64,000 nt of DNA from an uncultured Alphaproteobacteria bacterium (GCA_944389525.1 CALXMR010000005.1:362-64361), one strand, 5' to 3'. Positions 13,833 to 35,015 are shown, numbered from the stretch's first letter. Program-made: numbers and translations. The notes: a model not told the origin generated them from the letters alone.

Positions 13833-14034
13833 GTTCGTGTTCCCTTTGTTGTTGTAAAATTATATCACAATCATTGCAGTGACGCCCGAATAAATTATGG
13901 GAATCTTTGTTGTATTTATTTCTGTAAGAGGTTTTTTATTAAAAACTTGACAATGATAAATTTTGTGCGACAATTTAAGTACGAATCGGGGAGCAGGTCA
14001 GAGAACGGGCAGAGTTTGATAAAGGATAGATAGC

Positions 14035-14406
14035 ATGAAAAAAGTTCTGGTTTTTGCGATTGTGCTGGTCGGATTGGCTGGTTGTGGTGCATATTATGAC
14101 TATTACAAGGGCGGTGTTAGATACACCCAGGATGGTCAGGATTGTATTTATTACGCCGGTGAATATGGCAGCAATTTTTCTAAATATGTTGACGGCATGA
14201 ATACAAACAAGAAAATCGTGTATCGTAATACTCGTTGTGAAGACCTGTATGCGCGTGACACATTTGGTTTGCCGGCGCGTAATGAACGCCAGGTTTTGGC
14301 CCCAGCGGCACAAGAAGTGTCATGTCAGTCTTGTAACGCATGCAACACATGCAGCAATGTACAACCGGTTTTGAAACGCAGATATGTTATCGTTCCTGCT
14401 ATGTAA
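14035..14406 (+). CDS. Cys-rich lipoprotein, function unknown
   Basis: Lipoprotein signal with lipobox VGLAGC. Multiple Cys residues. Confidence 0.5.
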   Translation: MKKVLVFAIVLVGLAGCGAYYDYYKGGVRYTQDGQDCIYYAGEYGSNFSKYVDGMNTNKKIVYRNTRCEDLYARDTFGLPARNERQVLAPAAQEVSCQSCNACNTCSNVQPVLKRRYVIVPAM

Positions 14407-14424
14407 TTTATGCATAGTGGATTT

Positions 14425-14457
14425 ATGGCGGCATCAATTGATGCCGCCATTTTTTAT
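14425..14457 (+). terminator. Rho-independent terminator (atggcggcatcaattgatgccgccat plus T-run)
   Basis: Perfect hairpin followed by TTTTTT. Confidence 0.55.
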
Positions 14458-14526
14458 GTTTGATATGCTTGAACCGTGGGATTTTTTATGATAAAATTAG
14501 TCTAACAGGATAAAAGGGGATTTATT

Positions 14527-14910
14527 ATGAGCAAATTATTAAAACAATTGGGTTTCGCAGGGCTGGCCATTGTGGCGGGTGCATCGATGCCGGCATTTGC
14601 GGCAGCGCCAGGTGGGGTGGCCACTGTGGGAAACAGCGGTCTGTGCGAACTGATTGGCCAGATGCAGGGTGTGTTTAAAATTCTGCGTACATTGGCGTTC
14701 GTTGGTGCGGCGTTTTTGATTGCGCAATGGGCGTGGGGGTACATCAAGGCTGGCGATGTCAAAATGGACGAGTTAAAGGACAAAGGTACTGCGTTGTTGG
14801 TTGGGTTCGTGCTGTTGTTCGGAATTGGATTTTTGTTACAGTTCTTGAGTTCTTCGGCCGGGTTAAGTACCATGGGGTGCGACAATTTAATAACAGGTTG
14901 GAATCAATAA
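14527..14910 (+). CDS. TrbC/VirB2-family type IV secretion pilin-like protein
   Basis: Long signal peptide. Mature part GLCELIGQMQGVFKILRTLAFVGAAFLIAQWAWGYI...FGIGFLLQFL parallels the VirB2 pattern (NICTFILGPFG...GIVAIGISWMFGRA...FGASFLGK) with two hydrophobic helices. Confidence 0.45.
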   Translation: MSKLLKQLGFAGLAIVAGASMPAFAAAPGGVATVGNSGLCELIGQMQGVFKILRTLAFVGAAFLIAQWAWGYIKAGDVKMDELKDKGTALLVGFVLLFGIGFLLQFLSSSAGLSTMGCDNLITGWNQ

Positions 14911-17954: not shown

Positions 17955-18464
17955 CTAGCCCTCTTTGATTCCAAAAAGTGTCACGATATATTTTATATAC
18001 TCAACCAGCCATCGTTCAAGTCTTTTTGCCGGCGGCATACCAACCAGCGGCACAGCACATGTTATGATTTCTGTATCAGGTAATTCGTGCGAAATCAGGT
18101 ATTTTGCGCGGTTCATGTGTTCTTCGGTTGTGATTATAACGATTCTGTCCAGGCCGGCACGTGATACAATATCACGAATTGCACATGCATTTTGATATGT
18201 CGATTTCGAATCGGATTCGATTGTTACACGGCGCGCCATTTCATAGTTGTTTGCAACGCCGGCGCCAATAATGTATAAATCGGTGTCAGAATGTTGACGC
18301 ATTTGACGCATGGCAAATGGAATACGGCGAATGTCGCCCGTCAGAACAAATATGCTGTCATCGTGACGAATGCCGTCACATCCGCGTGGGGCGGCAAGTT
18401 TAAAAGCAATTCCGCCAACAACAAAGGCACAGATTATCAGCAAAGACGGGGTTAGTATTTTCAT
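17955..18464 (-). CDS. DUF218/YdcF (ElyC/SanA-like) family protein
   Basis: N-terminal TM. Start at MKILTPS (ATG 18464-18462), overlapping the ftsX stop by 1 nt (TAATG). Confidence 0.55.
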   Translation of the reverse strand: MKILTPSLLIICAFVVGGIAFKLAAPRGCDGIRHDDSIFVLTGDIRRIPFAMRQMRQHSDTDLYIIGAGVANNYEMARRVTIESDSKSTYQNACAIRDIVSRAGLDRIVIITTEEHMNRAKYLISHELPDTEIITCAVPLVGMPPAKRLERWLVEYIKYIVTLFGIKEG

Positions 18465-19303
18465 TAACTGTTTTTTAATATGTTTATTGTTGTGCGGCGG
18501 GTTATCCATATCGCAAATATCGTGATTGCAATCGGTAACAGTACCAGTGCAATCCATCCCCACCCAGAAATATCTAGCATCGCCATCAGGCCAACGCGTG
18601 CACTGTGCGCCGCCCCAAGTATCAGCAACAATACCGGCGCGGCAATAATAAAACCAATCGCCCCCGCCACGGTACATATTTTTGCAATAATAACCTGCAT
18701 CTGGTGGGCGACATAAGAATCACGCGCGCCAATTTGATTTAATATTTCCAGTTCGCGCCGATGCAACAGTGCCGTGTTGCGCGCAATGTACGAAATGCAT
18801 ACGCCAATCGTTCCCAATACTAACAACAGCACAAATGACGATATGAAAATCATTTTCCACCCGGCCGATGTCGAATGTGATAATGCCTGGGCATGGGTTA
18901 AAAACCGTGCGTGTGGTGATATCTCTTTGCCGATTTTGTCCAGGTCGTCTGGTGATACAAATTCTATTTCATACATCTGGGGCAGATAATTTTCCAATGC
19001 ACTGCCACCCGAAATCCACGGGCGCATTAAATCGTGCATCTGGTCAGTGGTGATTTCGTTTACACTGGTAATTTTATCGCGATTATCATCAATAATTTTC
19101 TTTATCGTATCTGTGTTTTTTGTGTCCATTATCTGGACTGTGGCGTATAAATCCCATTGCGCGTTCCAGCGTACAACACCTGTTCCAATCGCCAGCGCAA
19201 TCCCCAATGCCAAGACAGATAAAAATGTCAGCAGTGACATAATTGCCGTCATAAAGATGGATTGTTCGCGTACCAGTGAAAATACAATAGGCTTTTTAAT
19301 CAT
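18464..19303 (-). CDS. ftsX: Cell division ABC transporter permease FtsX-like
   Basis: Four-TM permease with large periplasmic loop, immediately downstream of ftsE. Confidence 0.8.
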   Translation of the reverse strand: MIKKPIVFSLVREQSIFMTAIMSLLTFLSVLALGIALAIGTGVVRWNAQWDLYATVQIMDTKNTDTIKKIIDDNRDKITSVNEITTDQMHDLMRPWISGGSALENYLPQMYEIEFVSPDDLDKIGKEISPHARFLTHAQALSHSTSAGWKMIFISSFVLLLVLGTIGVCISYIARNTALLHRRELEILNQIGARDSYVAHQMQVIIAKICTVAGAIGFIIAAPVLLLILGAAHSARVGLMAMLDISGWGWIALVLLPIAITIFAIWITRRTTINILKNS

Positions 19304-20712: not shown

Positions 20713-21453
20713 ATGAAAAGATTAGTATCTATGTTTGTTTTGTTGGGGTTAACCGCGCCGGCGGTTGCGGCGCCCAGTTATTTAACGCGTACGGGTAATG
20801 GTGGCTATCGCGTCACATATGATTACACGGACAAGGCGAAAACCGGATGGTATGTCGGTGGACGCGCAGAACTGGGGTTCTGGAACTGGGAAAACAAGTA
20901 CAGCGTTGATGATAACTTAACAGGGCTGAGAGACGCCTTTAAGAATGACGACTATTCGTTTGAGCCGGTATTTGGTGGCAGTTTGTCTGCCGGTCGCCGG
21001 TTTGCATATTTCTGGCGCGCAGAATTGGAACTGGGATATCTGGGGCATTTTGATGATTCTGATGCCGATTCAAGTATGTCTTTACAGATTCCATATGTCA
21101 TGTTGAATGGATATTATGATTTTGTAAATGGTCTATATCTGGGGGCAGGTGTTGGCGCGGCAATGCCAATAACAGAGATGGAGCTAAGAAGTACAATCCC
21201 TGTGCTTAAGACTTTTGATAGTTCTGATCGTACAGAATACAGTTTTGCGCCAATGGCTGGGTTAATGCTGGGGTATTCGTATGAATTGGATAATAATCTG
21301 GTACTGGATTTACGGTATCGTTTTGCGATAATGACCGGGTTTGACCATCGTGTTGGCTTTGATGATTGGAATGATACTGCGCATTGGATCCAGAACGATG
21401 TTGATTTCTTGATGGATAATTCCATATCGATTGGTATCAGATATGAATTTTAA
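20713..21453 (+). CDS. Outer membrane beta-barrel protein (OmpA-like barrel / OMP_b-brl family)
   Basis: Signal peptide, alternating amphipathic beta strands, C-terminal aromatic residue (IRYEF). Confidence 0.6.
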   Translation: MKRLVSMFVLLGLTAPAVAAPSYLTRTGNGGYRVTYDYTDKAKTGWYVGGRAELGFWNWENKYSVDDNLTGLRDAFKNDDYSFEPVFGGSLSAGRRFAYFWRAELELGYLGHFDDSDADSSMSLQIPYVMLNGYYDFVNGLYLGAGVGAAMPITEMELRSTIPVLKTFDSSDRTEYSFAPMAGLMLGYSYELDNNLVLDLRYRFAIMTGFDHRVGFDDWNDTAHWIQNDVDFLMDNSISIGIRYEF

Positions 21454-21465
21454 CACAAAATGGTG

Positions 21466-21495
21466 TTGACCCGATTCGCACAAATATGATATCAT
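21466..21495 (+). promoter_or_regulatory. Candidate sigma70 promoter (TTGACC, 18 nt spacer, TATCAT) for the tail-fibre-like gene cluster
   Basis: Near-consensus hexamers. This places the TSS downstream of the first ATG at 21486. Confidence 0.35.
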
Positions 21496-21518
21496 TTAGA
21501 CAAGTAGAGAGAATTAGC

Positions 21519-24110
21519 GTGAGAAAAAATCTGAAGATTTCAAGGTTGGCAATAGTTTGTGTCTTGTGCGCTGTTACGGCCTCGGGTGCATATGCGGCAT
21601 CGTCTGTGCGCAGCCTGGGGGGCAGCGGTACATATACTAGTGCGTCTAGTGCGGCATCCGCTGGTTCGGCTGGGGCGACAACGGCGGTACGCGGTGGTTC
21701 GTTGCGTGTGACGCCGTCTTCGGGTCAGTCTGGGTCCAGTACGACAATCAGTGCTGGCACAACAACCTCTGGGCGTGTGGCGACATCGCCGCGTTTGTCG
21801 ATTGGACAGTACTTGGGTGGCGCGACATCTATCAGTGGTGGGGGCAGTTCGTTGCGTCCGGGGACTGGTTCGGGTTCGTCTGGCGGTGGTTCTTCGTCTG
21901 GTGGCGGAATGGATCCGGATGTTGCCGGTGAAGTGTTGACGGCCATAGACGATATCCGGCGTGATGTTGACGCTTTGTTCAATGCGGATACGAACTTGCA
22001 GGATCAGGTTAGTGCAAAGCAAGATATGTTATATCCCGCCGCAGATGGGTTTATCATAATTGATGACAGTACGAACGAAATCTTTGTTGATGTTGATGCG
22101 TTGCAGGGTGCGTTGGAAACTGTTGCCGGCGAAGATGGACGCGAAGTTGAATTGGGTTCTAATGAAACGGATTTGTTGTGGCGCTATGTTGGTGATCCAG
22201 GATGGGAGACCTTGATTTCCAAGGCGGAAATTACCGGACCCCAGGGTGAAAAGGGTGAGCCGGGCGAGGCGGCTAATCTGGACGCATATTCCACGACCGA
22301 GCAGATGAATCAGGCGATTGGAAATGCAATCGCGGCATTGGCGGATGTTTATGCGACCAAGGCAGATGTTGATGCGTTAGAGCGCGAGGTCGCAGCCAAG
22401 GCAAACACACAATATGTAAATGATGAATTGGCAAAAAAAGCAAATGCAGCCGATGTTTATACCAAGACAGAAGTTGATGAAAAAGTTGCCGATATTGTTG
22501 CAGGCGATATGGACGAAGCGCTGGCGAACAAGGCAGATAAAACATATGTTGATGAACAATTGGCGACCAAGGCTGACAAGACAGAATTGGCGAACAAGGC
22601 AGACGCCAGTGCTGTTTCAGCATTAGAGACCGAAGTTGGTGAAATTAACGATTTGGCAAGTGATGCTGCATTGGCGGCGGCAAATGCAATCAGTGGTCTG
22701 GGTGCCAAAGAAAATATTTCAAATAAAACGCAAACTGTAACAAACAGTGCAACGGAATATCCGTCTGGTGCGGCGGTGACAGCCGCATTGGCGGATAAAG
22801 CGGATAAATCCGAATTGGCGAATTATGCCACGAATGATTCTGTTGATACAAAATTAGAAAATTACTATACGATTTCAGAAGTTGATGACAAGGTGGCAGA
22901 TGTTGTTGCCGGTGATATGGGCGAAGCGCTGATTGGTAAAGAAGATAAATCAAATAAAACACAGACAATAGATGCATCGTCTACGGCGGATCAGTATCCG
23001 TCGGCGGCGGCGGTTTATGGTGTTTTGGAACAAAAGGCAGATGCAACAACTGTTGAGCAGATTGAACAAGAAATTACAAATGTTTCAAATCAATATGAAA
23101 CAATAAATGAAACTGTAACAAATTTAGGCGACACAATTAATAACGAAGACACCGGTCTGAAAAAGCAAGTCGAAGATGCTGTAAATACTGCAAATGCTGC
23201 GCAACAGGCGGTCGCTGGCAAGCAAGATGCATTGGGATTCACCCCGGAAAATGTTGCGAACAAGAGTCAGACGGTTGTTGATGACGAAACAAAATATCCA
23301 TCGTCTGCGGCGGTTTATGGTGAATTAGAAACCAAGGCAAATGTATCTGATTTGGCGAATTATGCGACGACGGAAACGGTAAATCAGATTGAACAAAATG
23401 TTACCAATGTAACGGAACAGGTTACAAATTTAGGCGACACAATTAATAACGAAGACACCGGTCTGAAAAAGCAGGTTGAAGATGCTGTAAATACTGCAAA
23501 TGCCGCGCAACAGGCGGTCGCCGGCAAGCAAGATGCTTTGACCGCTGAACAAATGAATGCTGTGAATTCGGGCATTACCGCGGAAAAGGTTTCTGTATAT
23601 GACGGCTATGCCGATACTATCGCGGGCAAGCAAGACGCGTTGGGATATACCGCCGAAGATGTGGCAAACAAAACCGATGATATGGCGGTGGATGCTGGGT
23701 CCACGACCAAATATCCAACAGTTCACGCAGTCGAGGCATATGTCACCAACACTGTGGCCGAAGGGGTTGAAATTAATACAGATCAAATTGCGGCCGGTGC
23801 GGTTAAAACGGATCAGATTGGTGATGGTGCCGTGACGGAAGAAAAATTGTCTGATGAATTAAATGCCGAAATTGATGGCAAGGCAAACACTGCGGATTTG
23901 GGCGATTTGGCGAAAAAGGATCAAATTCGTGACGCCGATGTTGCGGACGATGCGGCAATTTCGAAATCTAAATTGGCGACTGATGTGCAAAACGCGTTGG
24001 ATAACGCGGCAAACGCAGTGGCTGCGCCGGCGGGCGAAAAACCAACAAACAGCGTACTGGGCACGGATGGCGAGGGCAATCCAGTGTGGTATGAAATCGT
24101 AACGGATTAA
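21519..24110 (+). CDS. Secreted phage-tail-fibre-like repeat protein 1 (tail-fibre-type repeats plus a short collagen-like GxY run)
   Basis: ORF 21486..24110. Probable GTG start at 21519 with GAGAGA RBS, giving signal peptide MRKNLKISRLAIVCVLCAVTASGAYA. S/G/T-rich low-complexity region. Repeats KADKTYVDEQLATKADKTELANKAD and YPSxAAV. GPQGEKGEPGE collagen-like run. C-term DGEGNPVWYEIVTD. Confidence 0.7.
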   Translation: MRKNLKISRLAIVCVLCAVTASGAYAASSVRSLGGSGTYTSASSAASAGSAGATTAVRGGSLRVTPSSGQSGSSTTISAGTTTSGRVATSPRLSIGQYLGGATSISGGGSSLRPGTGSGSSGGGSSSGGGMDPDVAGEVLTAIDDIRRDVDALFNADTNLQDQVSAKQDMLYPAADGFIIIDDSTNEIFVDVDALQGALETVAGEDGREVELGSNETDLLWRYVGDPGWETLISKAEITGPQGEKGEPGEAANLDAYSTTEQMNQAIGNAIAALADVYATKADVDALEREVAAKANTQYVNDELAKKANAADVYTKTEVDEKVADIVAGDMDEALANKADKTYVDEQLATKADKTELANKADASAVSALETEVGEINDLASDAALAAANAISGLGAKENISNKTQTVTNSATEYPSGAAVTAALADKADKSELANYATNDSVDTKLENYYTISEVDDKVADVVAGDMGEALIGKEDKSNKTQTIDASSTADQYPSAAAVYGVLEQKADATTVEQIEQEITNVSNQYETINETVTNLGDTINNEDTGLKKQVEDAVNTANAAQQAVAGKQDALGFTPENVANKSQTVVDDETKYPSSAAVYGELETKANVSDLANYATTETVNQIEQNVTNVTEQVTNLGDTINNEDTGLKKQVEDAVNTANAAQQAVAGKQDALTAEQMNAVNSGITAEKVSVYDGYADTIAGKQDALGYTAEDVANKTDDMAVDAGSTTKYPTVHAVEAYVTNTVAEGVEINTDQIAAGAVKTDQIGDGAVTEEKLSDELNAEIDGKANTADLGDLAKKDQIRDADVADDAAISKSKLATDVQNALDNAANAVAAPAGEKPTNSVLGTDGEGNPVWYEIVTD

Positions 24111-24122
24111 AGGAAAGAAAGA

Positions 24123-25937
24123 ATGAAAAAATCAAATATAGCATTTTCTGGGGTTATGGCGGCGATATTGTTCAGTGCCGGCGCGGCTAATGCGACCACA
24201 ACGCAAATTGCCAGCAAACAGTACGTTGACACCCGTGAAACGGCCATTTTGGAAAATGTCAGCAATACATATGAAACCAAAGAAAATGTCCAAAATCTGA
24301 CTGAACAGGTTACAAATTTGGGTGATACGATTAATAATGCCGAAACAGGATTGACAACAACGGTAAAAAAAATAACCCAGGTTGTTGGTGATGATACATC
24401 TGGATTGGTCAAGGATGTTACGGATTTGGGAACAACGGTTGATGGCTTGACAGAAACAGTTGGTAATTTAGATACGGAACTGGATTCTAAATTGGACAGC
24501 GCGACCGCAGATGGCAAGTATGAGGTTTTAACCAACAAGGCGACTGCAATTAATGCAGAAAATCAAACTTCTGGAACATCATATCCATCGGTCGGGGCAA
24601 TCGTTCAATGGACAAATAAAAAGATCGCCGATTTGTCGAATACTGGATTACCAGTTAACCCGGGTAATATCGAAGATGGAACAATTTCTGGCAGTAAATT
24701 GGAAAATGGTGCAATTACCACGGATAAAATCGCAAATGATGCCGTAACATCGGATAAAATTGCGGACGATGCGGTTGGGTCTGAACATATCAAGACCGGC
24801 GCGGTTGGATCCGATGAAATTGCCGATGGCGCGGTTGGTAATGCAGATTTGGCGGCAGATTCCGTAACAACAGATAAAATCAAAGATGGCACGATTTCAT
24901 CGGCTGATTTGGATACGGCATTAAATGCCGAAATAGATGGCAAAGAAGATAAATCAAACAAGGCCACCACCATTGATTCAACCAACCAGGCATCCACAGA
25001 CGCATATCCGTCTGTCAAGGCGGTGTACGATTGGACCACGACCCAGATTGCAAATGTTGAATTTGATCCGTCTGAATTGGCACCGGGGTCAATTGATGGT
25101 GATGCAATCCAAGATGGCAGTATTTCTGGTGATAAAATCACCGATGGCACAATTACATCAGACCAGATTGCCGATGGTACGGTTGGTACCGGTGATATCG
25201 CCGATGGTGCAATCACGGGCGATAAATTGGATGAAACATTGGCGGGGCAAATTGCCGATATCGATGGGAAACAAGACATTGCAATGGGTGTCGGTCACGA
25301 AAATCATATCGTGACAACTGATGCGTCTGGTAATATTACATCCGCTGCGACAATTGGTCAGGACAAGGTTACAGGTTTGACCACAGCGTTGGCGGACAAG
25401 GCGTCAATTGACGATATTCCAACAACTGTTGCGGAATTAACCGATGCATCAAATTATGCAACAACGGGTGCGTTGACGTCTGGATTGGCGGGCAAAGAAG
25501 ATACATCTAATAAGACCAAATTAATCAATGATGGCAATAAATCGTCTGAAACACTGTTCCCGACAATTGGCGCAATCACCACGTGGACAGATCAACAGAT
25601 TCAACAGTTATCGACCGAGGGTATTCCCGTTAATCCAGATAATATCGGTCCAAATGCGATTACAACTGATAAAATTGCAAATGGTGCGGTGACAACGCCG
25701 AAAATTGCAGATAAAGCCGTGACCGAAGACAAGTTGAGTGATGAACTGAACGCGGAAATCGATGGCAAGGCAAATGCCGCAGATGTTTATACCAAATTGG
25801 AAACAGATGGCAAAATTGTTGAATTGGCGGTACCGCAGCCAGACGCAGATTGTCAGGCGGAATCAGGGCTGTGCGTATTATCGGTTACAACCGATGGTGA
25901 TTTGGCATGGGTAAATGTAACCGCACCGGCAGAATAA
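24123..25937 (+). CDS. Secreted phage-tail-fibre-like repeat protein 2
   Basis: Signal peptide then IASKQYVD motif. Tandem 8-11 residue repeats (IADGTVGTGDIADGAITGDKL...). YPSVKAVYDW and YPSVGAIVQW motifs. C-term TTDGDLAWVNVT. Confidence 0.7.
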   Translation: MKKSNIAFSGVMAAILFSAGAANATTTQIASKQYVDTRETAILENVSNTYETKENVQNLTEQVTNLGDTINNAETGLTTTVKKITQVVGDDTSGLVKDVTDLGTTVDGLTETVGNLDTELDSKLDSATADGKYEVLTNKATAINAENQTSGTSYPSVGAIVQWTNKKIADLSNTGLPVNPGNIEDGTISGSKLENGAITTDKIANDAVTSDKIADDAVGSEHIKTGAVGSDEIADGAVGNADLAADSVTTDKIKDGTISSADLDTALNAEIDGKEDKSNKATTIDSTNQASTDAYPSVKAVYDWTTTQIANVEFDPSELAPGSIDGDAIQDGSISGDKITDGTITSDQIADGTVGTGDIADGAITGDKLDETLAGQIADIDGKQDIAMGVGHENHIVTTDASGNITSAATIGQDKVTGLTTALADKASIDDIPTTVAELTDASNYATTGALTSGLAGKEDTSNKTKLINDGNKSSETLFPTIGAITTWTDQQIQQLSTEGIPVNPDNIGPNAITTDKIANGAVTTPKIADKAVTEDKLSDELNAEIDGKANAADVYTKLETDGKIVELAVPQPDADCQAESGLCVLSVTTDGDLAWVNVTAPAE

Positions 25938-26001
25938 ATAAAATTAAATAAAAAACAGATTTGAAAAACAAAAAAACAAAATAGAAAGAAAGGAAAGAAA
26001 A

Positions 26002-27405
26002 ATGAAAAAATTAACAGCAGGTATATTTGCAACATTATTGGCAGTCGTATCAACCGGCGCCGCAAATGCAAGAATTGCGTCACAGGCATATGTTGATGAA
26101 AAAGATGCAGAACGTGTTGCGATTCAACAAGAAACAAATAATGGGGTCTTAACAACGAGTGCAACCGGTGCAGTTCAGGTTTCTGCCACCATCCCACAAT
26201 CGAGTGTTGCTGGATTGGATACGACATTAGCGGGCAAGGTTGATGATGCTGATTTGGCAAATTATGCAACCAAAACGGCACTGACAGATGGTTTGGCAAC
26301 AAAGGCATCGCAATCAGATGTAACAGCGTTGACGGGTCGTGTTACAACAGCAGAAGATGAGATCGATGCATTACAGGCACCAACAGCGCAGGTTGCTGAG
26401 GGGGTAACTGGACCAGTTTCTGGTGGTACAGTATATGACGCGATTGAGGGGGTTACAGGTAATGTAGGTAGTGTAACAGGTCGTGTAGATACATTAGAAG
26501 GTGAAATGGATACGGCGCAATCTGACATCTCAGAATTACAGGCAGGTAAGCAAGATAAAAATATGGGGGCAGGGGCAGCAAACCATATCGTAACAACGGA
26601 TGGCAGTGGTAATATTACATCCAGTGCGACAATTACCCAGGGGCAGGTTGCAGGTTTAAATACAGCATTAGATGCCAAGGCAGATAAATCTGCATTAGAT
26701 GGTAAAGTAGACGCAAATAAAGCAATTAGTGCGGGAACAGGTACAAAAATTACATATGATGCAAAAGGGTTGGTAACGGGCAGCGCCAGTTTAACTGCGT
26801 CGGATATCCCGGCATTGACAACAGATAAGATTACTGGTTTAGATACAGAATTGGATTCAAAGGCATCACAAACGGATTTAACCGCATTAACAGGGCGTGT
26901 TACAACCGCAGAAGGGGATATTGACGCATTACAGGCACCAACAGCGCAGGTTGCTGAGGGGGTAACTGGACCGGTTTCTGGTCAAACAGTGTTTAATGCA
27001 ATCCAGGGCGTTACAGGTGATGTTACCGGTGTAACAGGCCGTGTAGATACATTAGAAGATGAAATGGATACGGCGCAATCTGACATCTCAGGATTAAAGA
27101 CAGGTAAGCAGGATAAATTAACAGGTCCAGTTGGTAGTGCAACCCAGCCAGTGTATGTGAATGCAGAAGGTAATGTAGTTGCAGGAACCGCATATGGTTC
27201 ATTGGCGACCAAAAATCAGGTTGCAAATGCGGATGTTGCAGATAATGCCGCAATCGCGCAAAGCAAGATTGCAAACTTGGTAACTGATTTGGCAGCAAAA
27301 ATTACGGCGCCAGCAACATCTGAAACCGGTGAAACTGGTACATGGGTTTTGACATATGACGGAACCAGTTTCCAATGGGAAGATATTACCCGTGCTGGTG
27401 AATAA
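26002..27405 (+). CDS. Secreted phage-tail-fibre-like repeat protein 3
   Basis: Signal peptide then IASQAYVD. Internal duplication of a ~75 aa block. C-term LTYDGTSFQWEDIT. Confidence 0.7.
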   Translation: MKKLTAGIFATLLAVVSTGAANARIASQAYVDEKDAERVAIQQETNNGVLTTSATGAVQVSATIPQSSVAGLDTTLAGKVDDADLANYATKTALTDGLATKASQSDVTALTGRVTTAEDEIDALQAPTAQVAEGVTGPVSGGTVYDAIEGVTGNVGSVTGRVDTLEGEMDTAQSDISELQAGKQDKNMGAGAANHIVTTDGSGNITSSATITQGQVAGLNTALDAKADKSALDGKVDANKAISAGTGTKITYDAKGLVTGSASLTASDIPALTTDKITGLDTELDSKASQTDLTALTGRVTTAEGDIDALQAPTAQVAEGVTGPVSGQTVFNAIQGVTGDVTGVTGRVDTLEDEMDTAQSDISGLKTGKQDKLTGPVGSATQPVYVNAEGNVVAGTAYGSLATKNQVANADVADNAAIAQSKIANLVTDLAAKITAPATSETGETGTWVLTYDGTSFQWEDITRAGE

Positions 27406-27516
27406 TATGTAATGAATAATGTGTGCGGTGTGATGTCGCGCCGCACACAGGTAAAAAAAACAGATTGCGATAAACGAACAGTGGAACGAAACAGTTTTTT
27501 TAGGTAGAATACGGAT

Positions 27517-29043
27517 ATGATAAAGTCAAAGGGCATTTTCGCAGTTTCTTTTATAGCTATGATGGTGGTGGGGGGCGCATATGCAAATATTGCATCCCAG
27601 GGATACGTTGATCAACAGGTTGACGCAAAGCAAAATGCCAGCACCGCCGTAAAGGTTGCCACCGCCGGGACCGCGGTGGGGGATACGACGCATCCGGTCT
27701 ATGTTAATGCCAGTGGCGTTGCAACAAAAATAGACAAGGTTGCCGCCGCAGCAAGCGCGGATACTGCAACCAGTGCAACCAAGGCAACGCAAGATGGCAA
27801 TGGGGCAAATATTGCCAATACATATGCCAAAAAGACCGAATTGCCAACGGTGAATAATGCCACGCTGACCATTCAGAAAAATGGCGCAACTGTTGATACA
27901 TTTACTGCGAATGCGTCTGCGAACAAGACAATTAATATCACTGTGCCGACACAAACCAGTCAATTACAAAACAATAGTGGTTATATTACATCGGCGGATC
28001 TGCCAGATGAATATCAGTTAAAGGCGGCAACGGCGTCTGAATTGGGCGGTGTGAAATCCGGTGGTGATATTACTGTGGCGACCAGTGGCGCCGTGACCGT
28101 GAACAGTGCCACCAAGGCGACCCAGGACGCGTCCGGCAATGTGATTACAACCACATATGCGACAAAATCTGAATTAACATCTGGGTTGGCTGGGAAACAG
28201 GCGACTTTGTCGGGTGCGCAATTGAATGCGGTGAATTCTGGGATTACGTCGACCAAGGTATCAACCTATGACGGATACAATGCAAAAATAACCGCCGCGC
28301 AGACCGCCGCGCAGACCGCCGCCGATGCCGCCGATGCCGCACAAACAGCGGCAGAAACAGCACAAAGTACCGCGACAGCTGCACAGAATGCTGCGAATGC
28401 CAAGGTTGCCACCGCACAGGGTTCTGGTAATGCAAACAAGGCGGTGATTACGAATTCGTCTGGGAATATTACAACCGGTACGATTTCGTCGGGTATGATT
28501 GCAGATGATGCGGTAACCGCGGCGAAAATAGCAACCGGTGCAGTTGGAACCGATGGGTTGGCGTCTGGTGCCGTGACATCCGCGAAAATTGCCGATAGCA
28601 CAATTGTAAATGCAGATATTTCCGCCAGTGCCGCGATTGCTGCGTCAAAGATTTCGGGATTGGCGACGGTTGCGACATCGGGGTCTTATGATGATTTAAC
28701 GGACAAGCCGACAATTCCAGCGGCGATAACTGTTGATTCTGCGTTAAGTTCAACTAGTACAAATCCAGTTCAGAACAAGGTTATAAACACCGCATTGGCA
28801 GGTAAGTTAAGCACAACAGGGACAGCAGCCAAGGCAACAGCAGATGCAAGTGGTAATAATATTGCAAACACTTATGCGACCAAGGCGCAATTAACGGCAT
28901 TGGACAGTACATCATCTGGTTCAGGTGCGGTGGTTACAAATGTTTCCCAGACAGACGGCAAGGTGTCTGTAACCAAGGGGAATGTTCAAATCCCAGTGGG
29001 CAGTGCAACTGCAACATCTTATGCCACAATTTGGGTTCAATAA
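27517..29043 (+). CDS. Secreted phage-tail-fibre-like repeat protein 4
   Basis: Signal peptide then IASQGYVD. SGSYDDLTDKPTIP motif typical of tail fibres. LSGAQLNAVNSGITSTKVSTYDGY block shared with protein 1. Confidence 0.7.
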   Translation: MIKSKGIFAVSFIAMMVVGGAYANIASQGYVDQQVDAKQNASTAVKVATAGTAVGDTTHPVYVNASGVATKIDKVAAAASADTATSATKATQDGNGANIANTYAKKTELPTVNNATLTIQKNGATVDTFTANASANKTINITVPTQTSQLQNNSGYITSADLPDEYQLKAATASELGGVKSGGDITVATSGAVTVNSATKATQDASGNVITTTYATKSELTSGLAGKQATLSGAQLNAVNSGITSTKVSTYDGYNAKITAAQTAAQTAADAADAAQTAAETAQSTATAAQNAANAKVATAQGSGNANKAVITNSSGNITTGTISSGMIADDAVTAAKIATGAVGTDGLASGAVTSAKIADSTIVNADISASAAIAASKISGLATVATSGSYDDLTDKPTIPAAITVDSALSSTSTNPVQNKVINTALAGKLSTTGTAAKATADASGNNIANTYATKAQLTALDSTSSGSGAVVTNVSQTDGKVSVTKGNVQIPVGSATATSYATIWVQ

Positions 29044-29086
29044 AGGGTGCAGATGTTGTTACAGGGCAGGAGAGAGAACGAATTTC

Positions 29087-29109
29087 GCGGGCCTTTGCCC
29101 GCGTTTTTG
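29087..29109 (+). terminator. Rho-independent terminator after the fibre cluster (gcgggcctttgcccgc plus T-run)
   Basis: GC hairpin followed by TTTTTG. Confidence 0.5.
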
Positions 29110-29410
29110 TTTCTTGTCATTCTGGTGTGTGGGGGCAGGGCGACCGTGGCGATCCAGTGAATGCGATATGTGTCGCGTTGCGACTACATTATTTACTGGA
29201 TTGCTTCGCTATGCTCGCAATGACAAGGGGAGGGCTCGCAATGACAAGAGAGTGTGGTCGTTATTCGTTTCTTGTCATCGCGAGGGAACGCAGTGACCGT
29301 GGCGATCCAGTGAATGCGATATGTGTCGCGTTGCGACTACATTATTTACTGGATTGCTTCGCTGCGCTCGCAATGACAAGGGGGGGCACGCAATGACAAG
29401 GGGGCAGAGG
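29110..29410. repeat. Palindromic repeat element cluster
   Basis: Two ~88-bp direct repeats (29142-29229 and 29295-29383, ~97% identical) with internal palindromes. Additional ctcgcaatgacaag/cttgtcat motifs. Spurious ORFs read VIASAAKQSSK or LAMTRGG. Confidence 0.7.
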
Positions 29411-32751: not shown

Positions 32752-33287
32752 AAATAAACACAATAAAAACAGGAGTTGCCAATGTTTGAAGTTATACAAT
32801 ATTTATTAAATAACAATATCAATTCAATTCGCAGTGATTGCGCAGAATATAAAATACTGCAACAAAAGTATAAATCTTTAAAGGCGCAAAAGAAAGCCGC
32901 GTATGCAAAATTGAAAGAATTTGGTGCATGTGTGTCGAATTACAAAACGTGTCAAGAATATGATTATGTTATAGATAATGGTTGTCCACCCGTCATAGAA
33001 AATGTAGTTGTTGAAGCTTACACGGAAACATTACATGCATGCGATAATTGGTCTGAAACGCCATGTCTTAACGAGAGTTGCCCGCATTTTGCTGAAAACA
33101 AAAATTATATCCGCATATTACAGGATTATAAAACAGTGTGTGATATGAAAAAGCGCTTTTGGTGTGAAAAGTTTAACCGTACTAAATAAAAAACAGATGG
33201 CGTGTTTTCTTGTTCGTTATGTTTTGAAAACGCCATATTTGTCAATTTTGGCGGAGTTTATAAATGCACTGAAAGTATCTGATTAAA
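32718..33287. repeat. Imperfect ~35-bp direct repeat of the lepA 3' terminus flanking small-protein gene A
   Basis: Copies at 32718-32752 and 33252-33287. tttataaatgcactgaa is an exact 17-mer. The second copy still encodes FINALKVSD-stop and differs only at synonymous sites. Confidence 0.6.
32782..33189 (+). CDS. Small basic Cys-motif protein, paralog A of novel family
   Basis: ATG 32782 with AGGAG RBS. Motifs KY(L/F), EYKxL, C-x-C-x3-5-C(P)x(F/Y) ... FW. Confidence 0.55.
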   Translation: MFEVIQYLLNNNINSIRSDCAEYKILQQKYKSLKAQKKAAYAKLKEFGACVSNYKTCQEYDYVIDNGCPPVIENVVVEAYTETLHACDNWSETPCLNESCPHFAENKNYIRILQDYKTVCDMKKRFWCEKFNRTK

Positions 33288-33297
33288 GGAAAATAGC

Positions 33298-33729
33298 ATG
33301 CTGAAAGAAATAATAAATTATGTGTTTTCAAAATCGCCATTGCGAATTTGGGTTGATTATGAAGACTATTTAATTATAAAAACAAAGTGCACAGAACTTG
33401 AGGAACGTATGCGTGATGCACGGCGTTTGCTGGTGCGGCCATATGTCACAAAATCAGAAATTAAAGAACCTATTGGTTGTATAAAACGACGGGTTGTTTT
33501 TCCCGTGCAGTCAGCAGAAAATATTGTTTGTGAAAGAAAATCATCTGTGATGAAGGAATATTATTGTGTGAATTTCAATGAAAGTGCACAGAGATTTTCT
33601 GATTCGTGCAATATTAAAAGCTGCCCATTGTATCAAAATTATAAAACGTATGCTGATTTAAAACGAAAGTACGAGTTCTTGTTGAATGAAAAAAAATCAT
33701 TTTGGCAAAACAAAATTTGCTTGAAATAA
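33298..33729 (+). CDS. Small basic Cys-motif protein, paralog B
   Basis: Same size and motif pattern (INYVF, SCNIKSCPLY, KSFW). Own RBS. Confidence 0.55.
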   Translation: MLKEIINYVFSKSPLRIWVDYEDYLIIKTKCTELEERMRDARRLLVRPYVTKSEIKEPIGCIKRRVVFPVQSAENIVCERKSSVMKEYYCVNFNESAQRFSDSCNIKSCPLYQNYKTYADLKRKYEFLLNEKKSFWQNKICLK

Positions 33730-33750
33730 AAATAGAAAAGAGGATTTTTT

Positions 33751-34167
33751 ATGGGTTTGTTTAAATATTTGTATACAACATCGTGGAATAAAATTCATCA
33801 AGATATCCAGGAATATAAAAGGTTGCGTCAGACAGAAAAAACGGCAGACAAGCTGATGTGGGAAAAATATTCACAAATAAAAATTGATTTGGGGCCACAA
33901 GAATATGATATCACCCAAACAACCAATGGCTGTATCGTGCTGTGCGAGCAATTGTTGCCGGACTTTGGTCGTGATACAGTGCCAATGCTTTTACTGCGCA
34001 GATCGGTGTGTCCATATTTTAAATATAAAGAGTTTTGTAATCGGTCAGATTGTGAATTCAGAACACAGCAAAAACAGTATGTTGAAGCGGTTGTTCGGTA
34101 TGACTTGATAAAAAGTGAATGCAGAAATTTTTGGCGCAAGAAATTTATCGCGTCAAATACAAAGTAA
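33751..34167 (+). CDS. Small basic Cys-motif protein, paralog C
   Basis: Motifs FKYLY, QEYKRL, SVCPYF...CNRSDCEF, RNFW. RBS AGAGGA. Confidence 0.55.
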   Translation: MGLFKYLYTTSWNKIHQDIQEYKRLRQTEKTADKLMWEKYSQIKIDLGPQEYDITQTTNGCIVLCEQLLPDFGRDTVPMLLLRRSVCPYFKYKEFCNRSDCEFRTQQKQYVEAVVRYDLIKSECRNFWRKKFIASNTK

Positions 34168-34186
34168 GATAGTACAGGAAAATAAA

Positions 34187-34582
34187 ATGTTTCTAGGAAA
34201 ATTAAAATATGCTATTCGTGCCCCAATTGTGTGTATAAAGAAAAATTGGCATGAATACAAATTTTTAAGCAAAGCAATTGATCGGGCTCAAAAGGCGTGT
34301 GACCAGGCTAGAGCAAATATAACAACGGTCAGTTTTGATGATGATGGATTGTCTTGTATTGTAAAACATAGCACATTTGTACGCTTTTCTGAAAGACAGA
34401 AAAAGCCATTTTATTGTGATTATGAAACGCATTGTCTGATGTGGCGTGAAGGCTGTACCGTAAAAACATGTCAATATTTTAATAGACATATTACGTACAA
34501 TAAAGCTAAATCTAGATTAGATATGCTGATGACACGAAAAAATAATTTTTGGTCACGAAAATTATCTGGAAAAATTAGATAA
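34187..34582 (+). CDS. Small basic Cys-motif protein, paralog D
   Basis: Start at MFLGKLKY (ATG 34187, AGGAAA RBS), not the ORF-track start at 34115. Motifs HEYKFL, CQYF, NNFW. Confidence 0.5.
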   Translation: MFLGKLKYAIRAPIVCIKKNWHEYKFLSKAIDRAQKACDQARANITTVSFDDDGLSCIVKHSTFVRFSERQKKPFYCDYETHCLMWREGCTVKTCQYFNRHITYNKAKSRLDMLMTRKNNFWSRKLSGKIR

Positions 34583-34595
34583 ATGGAGGTGCATA

Positions 34596-35015
34596 ATGTT
34601 TATTGATTGGGTTAAATATTTTTTAAAAACAACCAGGGCAGAAAGAATTTCAGATAGAAAAAAATACGATAATTTGAACACGGTATATAAAATAAAGGCT
34701 CAACAGTGCATCTTGGCATATAATGATTTGTTGTCATTTAATGGCGAAATGTCTTGTCGTTGTACAAAGATGAGTTTAAAGACAACTATTGACAATAATC
34801 CTGGGGGTAATAATACCGCAACAGGTCTTGTAAAAAGTATCTTTGTGGAATGCCCCAAGTTTTTTTATTATACGGAATGCGATAATGAAGACTGTTCGTT
34901 TTATGAAAAAAACAAAAATTTTGTTCGTTTAAATAATGAATTGGTGGAAGTGCGCTTGAAGCGGGATGCATTTTGGCAAATCACAGTTGATAAAAGGTTG
35001 GAAAAAATATACTAG
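34596..35015 (+). CDS. Small basic Cys-motif protein, paralog E
   Basis: GGAGG RBS. Motifs VKYFL, ECPKFFYYTECDNEDCSFY, DAFW. Confidence 0.55.
   Translation: MFIDWVKYFLKTTRAERISDRKKYDNLNTVYKIKAQQCILAYNDLLSFNGEMSCRCTKMSLKTTIDNNPGGNNTATGLVKSIFVECPKFFYYTECDNEDCSFYEKNKNFVRLNNELVEVRLKRDAFWQITVDKRLEKIY

What the first reader, a model, noticed from the sequence alone, without database searches (positions are those of the whole stretch)
21466..29109. Four tandem paralogous secreted proteins built from phage tail-fibre repeats
Four adjacent same-strand genes (874, 604, 467 and 508 aa) all have Sec signal peptides. They consist of repeats characteristic of phage side-tail fibres: KADK(T/S)xV/ADVYTKTEVD-type repeats, repeated YPS(x)AAV(Y) motifs, SGSYDDLTDKPTIP, 8-11 residue beta-helix-like tandem repeats (I-A-D-G-x-V-T-x-D-K), and a short collagen-like GPQGEKGEPGE run. 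No phage structural or lysis genes are nearby. The genes are noticeably more GC-rich than surrounding housekeeping DNA. They look like domesticated or horizontally acquired fibre proteins used as surface adhesins, S-layer-like components or variable antigens.
Basis: partly seen in the sequence, partly recalled or inferred. Interest (0 to 1): 0.75.

Follow-up and report, generated by a model that had tools for sequence, protein, structure and literature searches.

The report
Conserved operon of secreted phage-fibre-like proteins
A tiny-genome, uncultured gut alphaproteobacterium (Candidatus Enterousia group) keeps a conserved four-gene operon for exported proteins built from phage-tail-fibre and adhesin-stalk modules; they are most likely fast-evolving surface fibres, and may be how this partner-dependent bacterium attaches to other cells.

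Summary
Four adjacent + strand genes (A 21519/21486-24110, B 24123-25937, C 26002-27405, D 27517-29043) lie between a promoter-like site (21466-21495) and an intrinsic terminator (29086-29113). Each begins with a canonical Sec/SPase-I signal ending AxA.

Homology to phage fibres is confirmed for B and D, is weaker for C, and is only motif-level for A. The KADxxVYTKxE and IAS(K/Q)xYVD motifs are the published beta-layer motifs of trimeric alpha/beta coiled coils (HylP1 tail fibre, NadA).

The horizontal-acquisition reading is not supported. GC3 is not raised. The locus sits in identical synteny (tolB...ftsEX, pal | OMP, A, B, C, D | dedA-like, rbfA, lepA) in 15 Rs-D84/Enterousia genomes, with no phage genes nearby.

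The signal peptides and C-termini are conserved. The shafts vary in length (D 293-724 aa) through repeat indels and module or allele swaps.

Best reading: vertically inherited, recombining trimeric cell-surface fibres, functionally analogous to Bdellovibrio MAT fibres. They are not members of the TAA, MAT, fibritin or collagen families. Surface exposure, trimerisation and the route across the outer membrane are inferred, not shown.

The parts
20713..21453 (+). 246-aa outer-membrane beta-barrel protein with its own signal peptide. It lies immediately upstream and is co-oriented and co-conserved with the fibre genes. It is a possible envelope partner; this is not shown.
   Evidence: Pfam OMP_b-brl 9.6e-8, above cut-off. 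Present directly upstream of gene A in all related loci.
21466..21495 (+). Sigma-70-like promoter candidate (TTGACC-18-TATCAT with an extended TG).
   Evidence: 10 of 12 matches. This is a consensus match only. The region as a whole has no excess of such sites (11 found against 17 expected).
21519..24110 (+). Gene A (863 aa from GTG 21519; the ORF from ATG 21486 gives 874 aa). In 863-aa numbering:
- signal peptide 1-26
- conserved Ser/Gly/Thr/Arg-rich region 27-131
- helix plus small beta module 133-239
- collagen-like GPQGEKGEPGE 240-250
- long alpha/beta coiled-coil rod with four YPS knobs and a 306-nt internal duplication
- short 10-residue repeats
- C-terminal hairpin ...NSVLGTDGEGNPVWYEI
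   Evidence: (P0121 100% identical, 863 aa). PDB profile hit to NadA 4cjd at 3e-5 on KANxADVYTKAEVY.
21597..21911 (+). A-specific N-terminal region (residues 27-131). It looks low-complexity but has dozens of invariant residues (SVRxLGGxGTY, RGGSxRVxP, GRVATxPRLSIGxYLxG). It is a candidate envelope-anchoring segment; this is an inference.
   Evidence: Invariant columns in 30 orthologues. Conserved in 37%-identical P0504. AF2 pLDDT about 30 with no regular structure.
22236..22268 (+). Short collagen-like run GPQGEKGEPGE, preceded by the beta module GREVELG..LLWRYVG..W..LI..ITG.
   Evidence: G240, P241, Q242, G243, G246 and E247 are invariant. The same module is repeated 7-15 times in collagen-repeat proteins P0399 and P0410. 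The Pfam Collagen model was not reached.
24123..25937 (+). Gene B (604 aa):
- signal peptide 1-24
- mature N-terminus with neck-type beta-layer IASKQYVD (29-36)
- helical segments 24-129
- three YPS/FPT knobs (154, 295, 479)
- three blocks of 10-residue repeats (183-262, 329-368, 508-527)
- ADVYTKLETD
- C-terminal Cys pair plus hairpin CVLSVTTDGDLAWVNV
   Evidence: (phrog_892 tail fiber 5e-32). PDB 9eg4_H phage LME-1 orf16 at 1.9e-6 with the profile.
24669..24908 (+). Longest array of 10-residue (30-nt) repeats, (I/L)-A-D-G-A-V-T-x-D-K. This is the segment shared with phage tail fibres, minor tail proteins and hyaluronidase. It is inferred to form a triple-stranded beta-helix.
   Evidence: family D1; period 30.
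26002..27405 (+). Gene C (467 aa):
- signal peptide 1-23
- IASQAYVD at 25-32
- a 558-nt-spaced internal duplication (26293-26559 and 26851-27117, 84% identical)
- C-terminal hairpin TWVLTYDGTSFQWEDI
   Evidence: (phrog_2824 virion structural protein 2.6e-8). In L001 the body is replaced by a 30%-identical allele behind an identical signal peptide.
27517..29043 (+). Gene D (508 aa):
- signal peptide 1-23
- IASQGYVD at 25-32
- phage module PTVNNATLTIQKNG...NITVPT (about 79-160)
- NAVNSGIT module shared with A
- Ala/Gln-rich helix
- 10-residue repeats (328-368)
- PTR-like module ATVATSGSYDDLTDKPTIP...STSTNPVQNKVI (about 380-430)
- conserved C-terminus ...ATSYATIWVQ
29086..29113 (+). Intrinsic terminator closing the four-gene unit (CGCGGGC-CTTT-GCCCGCG followed by TTTTTGTTTC).

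Best explanation
The locus is a chromosomal, vertically inherited operon of an Enterousia/Rs-D84 gut alphaproteobacterium. It encodes four paralogous fibre proteins.

Proposed mechanism:
- Each protein is made with a cleavable Sec signal peptide and exported from the cytoplasm.
- Each then folds as a parallel homotrimeric fibre.
- The fibre starts at the mature N-terminus with a neck-type beta-layer (IAS(K/Q)xYVD in B, C and D).
- It continues through alpha/beta coiled-coil segments (KAD/KADxxVYTKxE beta-layers), small YPS..AV knobs and triple-stranded beta-helix segments made of 10-residue repeats.
- It ends in a short paralogue-specific beta-hairpin.
- The fibres are displayed on the cell surface. 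A probably serves as the envelope-attached member, through its conserved Ser/Gly/Arg-rich N-terminal region.
- The shafts and their modules turn over rapidly by repeat gain and loss, by gene conversion between paralogues, and by module exchange with the phage tail-fibre pool. This changes fibre length and binding or antigenic properties while the export and terminal elements stay fixed.
- In an organism of about 1 Mb without flagella, respiration or standard transporters, the most likely use is attachment to a partner cell or host surface.

Shown: gene structure, signal-like N-termini, motif content, homology to phage fibre modules, deep synteny, mosaic variation.

Inferred: trimer formation, surface location, anchoring by A, adhesion.
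For: - Genes and operon signals.
- Canonical AxA signal peptides, conserved across orthologues.
- Phage-fibre homology: B to phrog_892 at 5e-32 and to 449 phage records at 30-37% identity. D to a viral tail-fibre-like protein at 56% identity, 2e-28, and 110 viral stretches in all. A PTR module as in P0346.
- Trimer-specific motifs: NadA 4cjd at 3e-5 and GCN4-fusion coiled-coil constructs. The published consensus LxxKADKxxVYTKxE and the AATKAYVD neck of HylP1 2C3F, all described in trimeric structures (PMC4786415). Motif counts against shuffles.
- Predicted secondary structure: long helices, unstructured repeat blocks (expected when a trimeric fold is modelled as a monomer) and terminal hairpins.
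- Same order and neighbours in L001-L014 and L017, with flanking genes 60-99% identical and fibres 28-86% identical, and lengths A 557-1078, C 324-595, D 293-724 aa.
- Strain variants differ by clean in-frame loss of a 10-aa repeat, loss of a 29-aa module, and module replacement. The C allele is replaced in L001.
- Host biology: genomes under 1 Mb, no flagella, partner-dependent lifestyle proposed (PMC12306168).
- Precedent for Sec-exported phage-like fibres on a bacterial surface: Bdellovibrio MAT (PMC10769870).
Against: - There is no experimental or proteomic evidence of expression or location.
- No outer-membrane translocator or anchor was identified. There is no YadA-type barrel, no lipobox and no C-terminal aromatic beta-signal.
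- The adjacent 246-aa barrel protein is too small to be an obvious translocator for a trimer.
- Monomer AF2 models are poor (pLDDT 45 and 44), so the fold is not confirmed. Fold search gave nothing significant.
- Codon adaptation is only average to slightly above average (0.58-0.65 against a mean of 0.58). That argues against a very abundant coat protein.
- A itself has only weak PHROG matches (0.005).
- The C-terminal ends are conserved and small, so there is no obvious variable receptor-binding tip as in phage fibres or MATs.
Confidence: 0.55

Rival explanations
1. Protective or antigenically variable fibrillar surface coat (S-layer-like brush). On this view it has no specific adhesive role. 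It might shield the cell from phages, host immunity or bile, or act as a decoy that presents phage-like fibres.
For: - Ala/Thr/Asp/Gly-rich, nearly Cys-free acidic composition typical of surface-layer proteins.
- Rapid length and module variation between strains and species.
- The conserved small C-termini offer no obvious receptor-binding tip.
- Four co-transcribed paralogues could form a mixed coat.
Against: - Codon adaptation is not in the range of the translation genes (0.58-0.65 against 0.70-0.75). Major coat proteins are usually among the most highly expressed.
- There is no S-layer family match (SLH, RsaA-type) in Pfam or NCBIfam.
- Fibre modules of this kind are, where studied, binding organelles (phage fibres, TAAs, MATs).
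Confidence: 0.2
2. Envelope-internal (periplasmic) trimeric spacers or scaffold. These would be exported by Sec but retained between the membranes and would work with the neighbouring Tol-Pal/OmpA-like envelope genes, analogous to Lpp-type coiled-coil struts.
For: - Sec signal but no recognisable outer-membrane export or anchor element.
- The locus is flanked by pal (OmpA-family lipoprotein) and tolB, and preceded by an OMP.
Against: - Fibres of 450-1000 residues would far exceed the width of the periplasm (inference from coiled-coil rise per residue).
- Strain-level module shuffling and length variation are typical of externally exposed proteins, not of housekeeping envelope struts.
- The modules are shared with phage receptor-binding fibres.
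Confidence: 0.1
3. Remnant of a prophage, gene-transfer agent or tailocin whose fibre genes survived.
For: Sequence similarity to phage tail fibre, minor tail and virion structural families.
Against: - There are no other phage genes, no integrase and no tRNA nearby.
- Synteny between housekeeping genes is identical in 15 genomes spanning deep divergence.
- All four have conserved Sec signal peptides, which virion fibres do not need.
- GC3 and codon usage are native.
- There are no further copies in the window.
Confidence: 0.03

Closest known systems
Bdellovibrio bacteriovorus MAT (mosaic adhesive trimer) fibre proteins (Caulton et al. 2024, PMC10769870)
   Same: Both are chromosomal multigene families of Sec-signal-bearing, phage-tail-fibre-like proteins in a Gram-negative bacterium that depends on other cells. 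Both have a mosaic, modular build. MATs have been shown to sit on the cell surface and bind prey glycans.
   Different: [quoted passage not shown] They also have variable C-terminal tip domains or an S74 chaperone-protease.
- Here B, C and D start directly with a coiled-coil neck. A has a Ser/Gly/Arg-rich region with no predicted structure. The C-termini are short and conserved, and no S74 domain is found.
- There is no sequence match to the solved MAT fragments in the PDB.
- MATs are 21 dispersed genes. Here there are four paralogues in one conserved operon.
Streptococcus pyogenes prophage tail-fibre hyaluronidase HylP1 (PDB 2C3F) and related phage fibres
   Same: The motif grammar is the same: a KADKxxVYTKxE tandem beta-layer, an AATKAYVD-type neck, and a central triple-stranded beta-helix (PMC4786415). 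B matches a streptococcal phage hyaluronidase gene (E 8e-7) and many tail fibre and minor tail proteins.
   Different: HylP is a virion protein without a signal peptide, encoded in a prophage tail module, and it has enzymatic activity. Here there is no phage context and Sec signals are present. No PDB-level sequence match to HylP was found.
Trimeric autotransporter adhesins (type Vc; NadA, YadA, OMP100)
   Same: Both have a Sec signal and a long stalk of trimeric coiled coil interrupted by beta-layers. The A profile matches NadA 4cjd at 3e-5 on KANSADVYTKAEVYTK.
   Different: The defining C-terminal YadA-type membrane-anchor barrel is absent. The C-terminus here is a 15-40 residue hairpin.
Phage T4 fibritin and the T4 long-tail-fibre gene set (gp34-37)
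   Same: All are segmented trimeric coiled-coil fibres ending in a small C-terminal beta-hairpin. T4 also has four consecutive fibre genes.
   Different: Foldon homology was tested and not found (hhalign probability 0.5%; no fibritin or foldon construct in the PDB profile search). The Pfam Fibritin_C match is below threshold (E 0.031). Nothing indicates end-to-end assembly of A to D.

Membership tests
Trimeric autotransporter adhesin (type Vc secretion) | C-terminal YadA-like beta-barrel translocator/anchor (Pfam YadA_anchor) | tested here: not met
   No such hit for any of the four proteins at E<=1. The C-termini are short conserved hairpins.
Trimeric autotransporter adhesin (type Vc secretion) | N-terminal Sec signal and a coiled-coil stalk with beta-layer motifs | tested here: met
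   AxA signal peptides. NadA 4cjd match at 3e-5. Motifs as defined in PMC4786415.
Phage tail fibre / virion fibre protein | Sequence homology to phage fibre families | tested here: met
   B: phrog_892 at 5e-32 and 449 phage records. D: 56% identity, 2e-28, to a tail-fibre-like protein in viral contig L019. C: phrog_2824 at 2.6e-8. A: only weak (0.005).
Phage tail fibre / virion fibre protein | Encoded within a virion structural (tail/baseplate) module of a phage or prophage | tested here: not met
   The neighbours are tolB, plsC-like, DUF218, ftsX, ftsE, pal, an OMP, a DedA/VTT protein, rbfA, a GNAT protein and lepA, in 15 genomes. The only tRNA is 9 kb away.
Bdellovibrio MAT superfamily | Conserved beta-rich domain of about 130 aa immediately after the signal peptide | tested here: inconclusive
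   B, C and D have none; the coiled-coil neck starts at mature residue 2-6. A has a conserved 105-aa region, but the low-confidence model gives it no beta structure. No MAT N-domain sequence was available for direct comparison.
Bdellovibrio MAT superfamily | Variable C-terminal adhesive tip or S74 chaperone-protease domain | tested here: not met
   No Peptidase_S74 hit. The C-termini are short and conserved within each paralogue. There are no PDB matches to solved MAT tips.
Bdellovibrio MAT superfamily | Trimeric fibre located on the cell surface | not testable with these tools
   Only monomer AF2 was available (pLDDT 45 and 44). No localisation data exist.
Collagen-like proteins | Extended Gly-X-Y repeat region recognised by Pfam Collagen | tested here: not met
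   A has a single run of 3-4 triplets. There is no Collagen hit at E<=1.
T4 fibritin | C-terminal foldon trimerisation domain | tested here: not met
   hhalign probability 0.5% against the foldon sequence. The PDB profile search returned no fibritin or foldon-fusion chains. Fibritin_C E 0.031, below cut-off and elsewhere in the protein.
S-layer proteins | Membership of a known S-layer family, or formation of a 2D lattice | not testable with these tools
   No S-layer family hit in Pfam or NCBIfam. Lattice formation needs microscopy.

The most novel reading that the evidence does not exclude
The four fibres are the host-range organelle of an obligately partner-dependent (epibiotic or parasitic) alphaproteobacterium. 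On this reading they are a bacterial equivalent of a phage tail-fibre set. They would determine which cell or mucosal surface Enterousia attaches to. They would diversify by drawing on the same module pool as gut phage tail fibres. Export across the outer membrane would use a route not yet described, because no known anchor or translocator element is present.
Probability: 0.25. Interest if true: 0.75.

Novelty: new variant of a known kind. Interest (0 to 1): 0.5.

Why it matters
Rs-D84/Enterousia bacteria are widespread in human and animal guts. Their genomes are under 1 Mb, they lack respiration, flagella and ordinary transporters, and they are thought to live off a partner. Nothing is known about how they make contact (PMC12306168).

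A 7.6-kb operon, close to 1% of such a genome, that is retained in every related genome examined and evolves by module shuffling is the most obvious candidate for that contact apparatus.

It would also extend the idea, so far shown only for Bdellovibrio MAT proteins, that bacteria dependent on other cells reuse phage-fibre building blocks as Sec-exported surface fibres. It also gives concrete targets (conserved termini, variable shafts) for antibodies, for FISH-coupled imaging and for strain typing.

Tried and rejected
1. Foldon hypothesis for the C-terminal VLxxDGxxxW hairpin. hhalign probability was 0.5%, and the PDB profile search gave only chance hits such as hirudin. Rejected as homology.
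2. AF2 monomer models of B and A with 30-sequence alignments. pLDDT was 45 and 44, so they were used only for secondary structure. The Foldseek search of the A model against viral structures gave nothing at E<=0.001. The remaining fold searches were not spent on such models.
3. Pfam and NCBIfam. No family reached its cut-off for any of the four proteins.
4. PADLOC. Only PD-Lambda-5_A matched, on the 10-residue repeat of B (1.2e-7). This is a repeat-only match and not evidence of a defence system.
5. High-expression test by codon adaptation. The result was not distinctive.
6. Foreign-origin test by GC and GC3. Negative.
7. Search for silent cassettes or extra copies in the window. None found.
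8. Lipoprotein reading of A (Cys residues in the h-region). There is no lipobox-like context, and the AYA|A cleavage site is conserved.
9. Close relatives of B in viral contigs. Only one weak hit, so B as a whole is not a current phage gene.

Full report
**What is there.** Four + strand ORFs lie head to tail: 21486-24110 (874 aa), 24123-25937 (604 aa), 26002-27405 (467 aa) and 27517-29043 (508 aa). I call them A, B, C and D.

A most likely starts at GTG 21519, which is preceded by GAGAG. That start gives 863 aa, identical to database protein P0121, and orthologues begin MKxxLKIS.

A promoter-like TTGACC-18-TATCAT site sits at 21466-21495. A 7-bp all-GC hairpin with a T-run sits at 29086-29113. 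The gaps between the genes are 12, 64 and 111 nt, and no convincing terminator lies between them.

**Signal peptides.** Each protein starts with two to four basic residues, then a hydrophobic core of 10-17 residues, then a small-x-small site:
- A: ...TASGAYA|ASS
- B: ...SAGAANA|TTT
- C: ...STGAANA|RIA
- D: ...VGGAYA|NIA

These segments are the best-conserved part of each protein across orthologues. SignalP was not available, so this is a rule-based reading. No lipobox is present.

**Motifs.**
- YPS/YPT..A[VIM] knobs: 4 in A and 3 in B, against 0 in shuffles.
- 10-residue repeat (I/L)ADGAVTxDK: 14 in B, 3 in D and 2 in A, against about 0.1-0.3 in shuffles.
- K[AE][DN] nonad-type motifs: 26 in A, against 1.9 in shuffles.
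- KANAADVYTKTEVD-type tandem: one each in A and B.
- SGSYDDLTDKPTIP: one in D.
- GPQGEKGEPGE: one in A.

The 30-nt period and several internal duplications are visible in the DNA. A has a 306-nt spacing at 92% identity and C has a 558-nt spacing at 84% identity. Segments are also shared between paralogues. The paralogues themselves are old, at 24-30% identity with E 1e-13 to 1e-28. The motif sets differ between proteins, and C carries almost none of the listed ones.

**Base composition.** The claim of raised GC fails. The region is 0.467 GC against 0.443 for the rest of the window. GC3 is 0.29-0.45 against 0.449 elsewhere. The small excess reflects Ala/Gly/Thr codons. Codon adaptation relative to the EF-Tu, EF-G and ribosomal-protein genes of the same window is 0.58-0.65, against a mean of 0.58 for other genes.

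**Organism and context.** A scan of one genome per species found the locus in 14 MAG contigs labelled uncultured Alphaproteobacteria or Candidatus Enterousia. Protein P0172 is named as Candidatus Enterousia intestinigallinarum.

In all of these loci the order is the same: tolB ... acyltransferase, DUF218, ftsX, ftsE, pal (minus strand) | OMP beta-barrel, A, B, C, D | VTT/DedA (minus strand), rbfA, GNAT, lepA. A 37%-identical A orthologue, P0504, lies in the same arrangement in a more distant genome.

No phage gene, integrase or nearby tRNA is present. No extra copy exists in the window.

Enterousia and the order Rs-D84 have genomes mostly below 1 Mb. They lack the TCA cycle, respiration, flagella and standard transporters, and a partner-dependent lifestyle has been proposed for them (PMC12306168).

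**Variation.** Flanking genes are 60-99% identical between these genomes. The fibre proteins are 28-86% identical and vary in length:

| Protein | Length range (aa) |
|---|---|
| A | 557-1078 |
| B | 573-670 |
| C | 324-595 |
| D | 293-724 |

Each paralogue keeps its own signal peptide and its own C-terminus:
- A: ...NSVLGTDGEGNPVWYEIAM
- B: C...LCVLSVT..GDLAWVxVT.PAE
- C: C...KCVL....Y.WEVI.RG
- D: ...VSVTKGNV.IPVG..ATSYATIWVE

Near-identical strain variants of B differ by clean loss of one 10-residue repeat and of a 29-residue module, or by replacement of a whole knob-plus-repeat module. In L001 the body of C is a 30%-identical allele behind an identical signal peptide. This is the pattern of a recombining, modular gene with fixed ends.

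**Relation to phage fibres.**
- B matches PHROG 892 'tail fiber protein' (5e-32) and PHROG 28766 (2.6e-13).
- By tblastn, B residues about 176-380 match 449 phage records at 30-37% identity, with E down to 1e-14. These are annotated as minor tail protein, tail fiber(-like) protein, host specificity protein J, receptor binding complex and hyaluronidase.
- The same repeat occurs in orf16 of Legionella phage LME-1 (PDB 9eg4, the capsid model). E is 9e-4 with the single sequence and 1.9e-6 with the profile.
- D had no PHROG hit, but 110 viral-contig stretches share its modules.
- D residues 79-160 are 56% identical (2e-28) to a repeated module of a 1351-aa protein in an 85-kb viral contig. That module is what matches the tail-fibre PHROGs 35419 and 24919.
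- D residues about 380-430 are the 'phage tail repeat like' PTR module, as seen in P0346.
- C matches virion structural PHROG 2824 at 2.6e-8.
- A has only weak PHROG hits (0.005).

**Trimer grammar.** A profile of A orthologues hits the trimeric adhesin NadA (4cjd, 3e-5) on KANxADVYTKAEVY. It also hits GCN4-fused coiled-coil fragments.

Hartmann et al. (PMC4786415) describe these sequences as beta-layers of trimeric alpha/beta coiled coils:
- The tandem consensus LxxKADKxxVYTKxE occurs in the HylP1 tail fibre (2C3F), in NadA4 and in 'many bacterial ORFs'.
- The beta-to-coiled-coil neck is ...AATKAYVDKA....

The mature N-termini of B, C and D are that neck: IASKQYVD, IASQAYVD and IASQGYVD, at mature residues 2-13. 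These three proteins therefore begin their trimeric shaft directly after signal cleavage.

HylP1 also has a central triple-stranded beta-helix (my own knowledge of 2C3F). B's repeat region aligns with a streptococcal phage hyaluronidase gene.

The trimeric fibre architecture is thus well supported by motif-level knowledge. It was not confirmed structurally. AF2 monomer models were poor (pLDDT 45 and 44). They show long helices, unstructured repeat blocks and terminal hairpins. The fold search gave nothing significant.

**The odd member, A.** After its signal peptide, A has about 105 Ser/Gly/Thr/Arg-rich residues. This stretch looks low-complexity but contains dozens of invariant positions, and it is kept in the 37%-identical orthologue.

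A phmmer search of 1.84 billion representative proteins with A residues 1-239 found 654 clusters, 275 of them at E<=1e-10. Most matched at their own N-terminus, which indicates a very diversified family sharing this head.

Next comes a helix and a small beta module (GREVELG..LLWRYVG..W..LI..ITG) abutting 3-4 collagen triplets. That module is repeated 7-15 times in unrelated collagen-repeat proteins and has no Pfam model.

I infer that the conserved N-region of A is the envelope-binding end. Nothing tests this.

**Explanation and rivals.** The best reading (0.55) is a set of Sec-exported, homotrimeric cell-surface fibres. They are vertically inherited in Rs-D84 and diversified by module shuffling, partly from the phage fibre pool. 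They would be used for attachment by an organism that needs a partner.

The closest functional precedent is the Bdellovibrio MAT family: Sec signal, phage-like trimeric fibres, surface location and glycan binding (PMC10769870).

The weak points are these:
- No outer-membrane anchor or translocator is recognisable.
- There is no variable tip domain.
- There are no expression data.

Rivals:
- A non-adhesive variable coat (0.2).
- Periplasmic struts linked to the neighbouring Tol-Pal genes (0.1).
- A prophage or GTA remnant (0.03). This is contradicted by synteny, signal peptides and native codon usage.

**Family membership.**
- Not a trimeric autotransporter adhesin: no YadA anchor.
- Not a virion fibre: no phage context.
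- Not demonstrably a MAT: no S74 or tip domain, the N-domain test is inconclusive, and there is no PDB match.
- Not a collagen-family protein.
- Not a fibritin: the foldon test was negative.

The proteins share building blocks with all of these families.

**Verdict.** This is a real, conserved and previously undescribed locus. I found no named homologue among the listed hits except one 'hypothetical protein', and no mention in the Enterousia paper I read. It is a new variant of a known kind, phage-fibre-like exported bacterial fibres. Interest is moderate. The biology would matter if the fibres prove to be the attachment apparatus of these reduced-genome gut bacteria, but the present evidence is entirely computational.

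Noticed in passing
window 29142-29243 and 29270-29395: Two tandem copies (96% identical) of a palindromic element of about 100-126 nt lie just downstream of the terminator. The element folds into one long hairpin (-63 kcal/mol). Further copies sit at the same intergenic site in L001 and L002, and there are no others in the window. It looks like a small MITE- or REP-type repeat.
   Followed up: partly
window 32776-35015: Five tandem small paralogous ORFs (137-155 aa, e.g. MPMFDVIQYLLNNNINSIRSDFAEYKAL...) lie in a markedly low-GC stretch (0.33-0.35) downstream of lepA. Their number and sequence vary between related genomes.
   Followed up: no
window 21597-21911 (protein A residues 27-131 of the 863-aa form): This Ser/Gly/Thr/Arg-rich stretch looks disordered (pLDDT about 30) yet has dozens of invariant residues across 30 orthologues. 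It is kept in a 37%-identical orthologue. No known domain matches it and its function is unknown.
   Followed up: partly
window 22110-22268; proteins P0399, P0410: A beta module of about 40 aa (GREVELG..LLWRYVG..W..LI..ITG) abuts collagen-like triplets. It is repeated 7-15 times in unrelated long collagen-repeat proteins and has no Pfam model. It may be an uncatalogued collagen-registering or trimerisation module.
   Followed up: partly
L001 12521-13855 against window 26002-27405: In the closest reference genome the body of gene C is replaced by an allele only about 30% identical, while the signal-peptide region is identical. This points to allelic replacement by recombination at conserved ends.
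   Followed up: partly
window 24663-24920 (B residues 181-266): The PADLOC model PD-Lambda-5_A matches the 10-residue fibre repeat (E 1.2e-7). That defence-system model therefore contains a tail-fibre-like repeat and can give repeat-only hits.
   Followed up: no
L002 about 13230-14792: In this genome gene D lacks its signal-peptide start in frame; the ORF begins at an internal Met (441 aa). This could be a frameshift, a pseudogene or an assembly error.
   Followed up: no
window 17955-18677 and 18464-19303 (minus strand): The mechanically called DUF218 ORF overlaps the ftsX-like ORF by about 210 nt. Orthologues are 152-176 aa, so the true start of the DUF218 gene is probably further downstream.
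   Followed up: no
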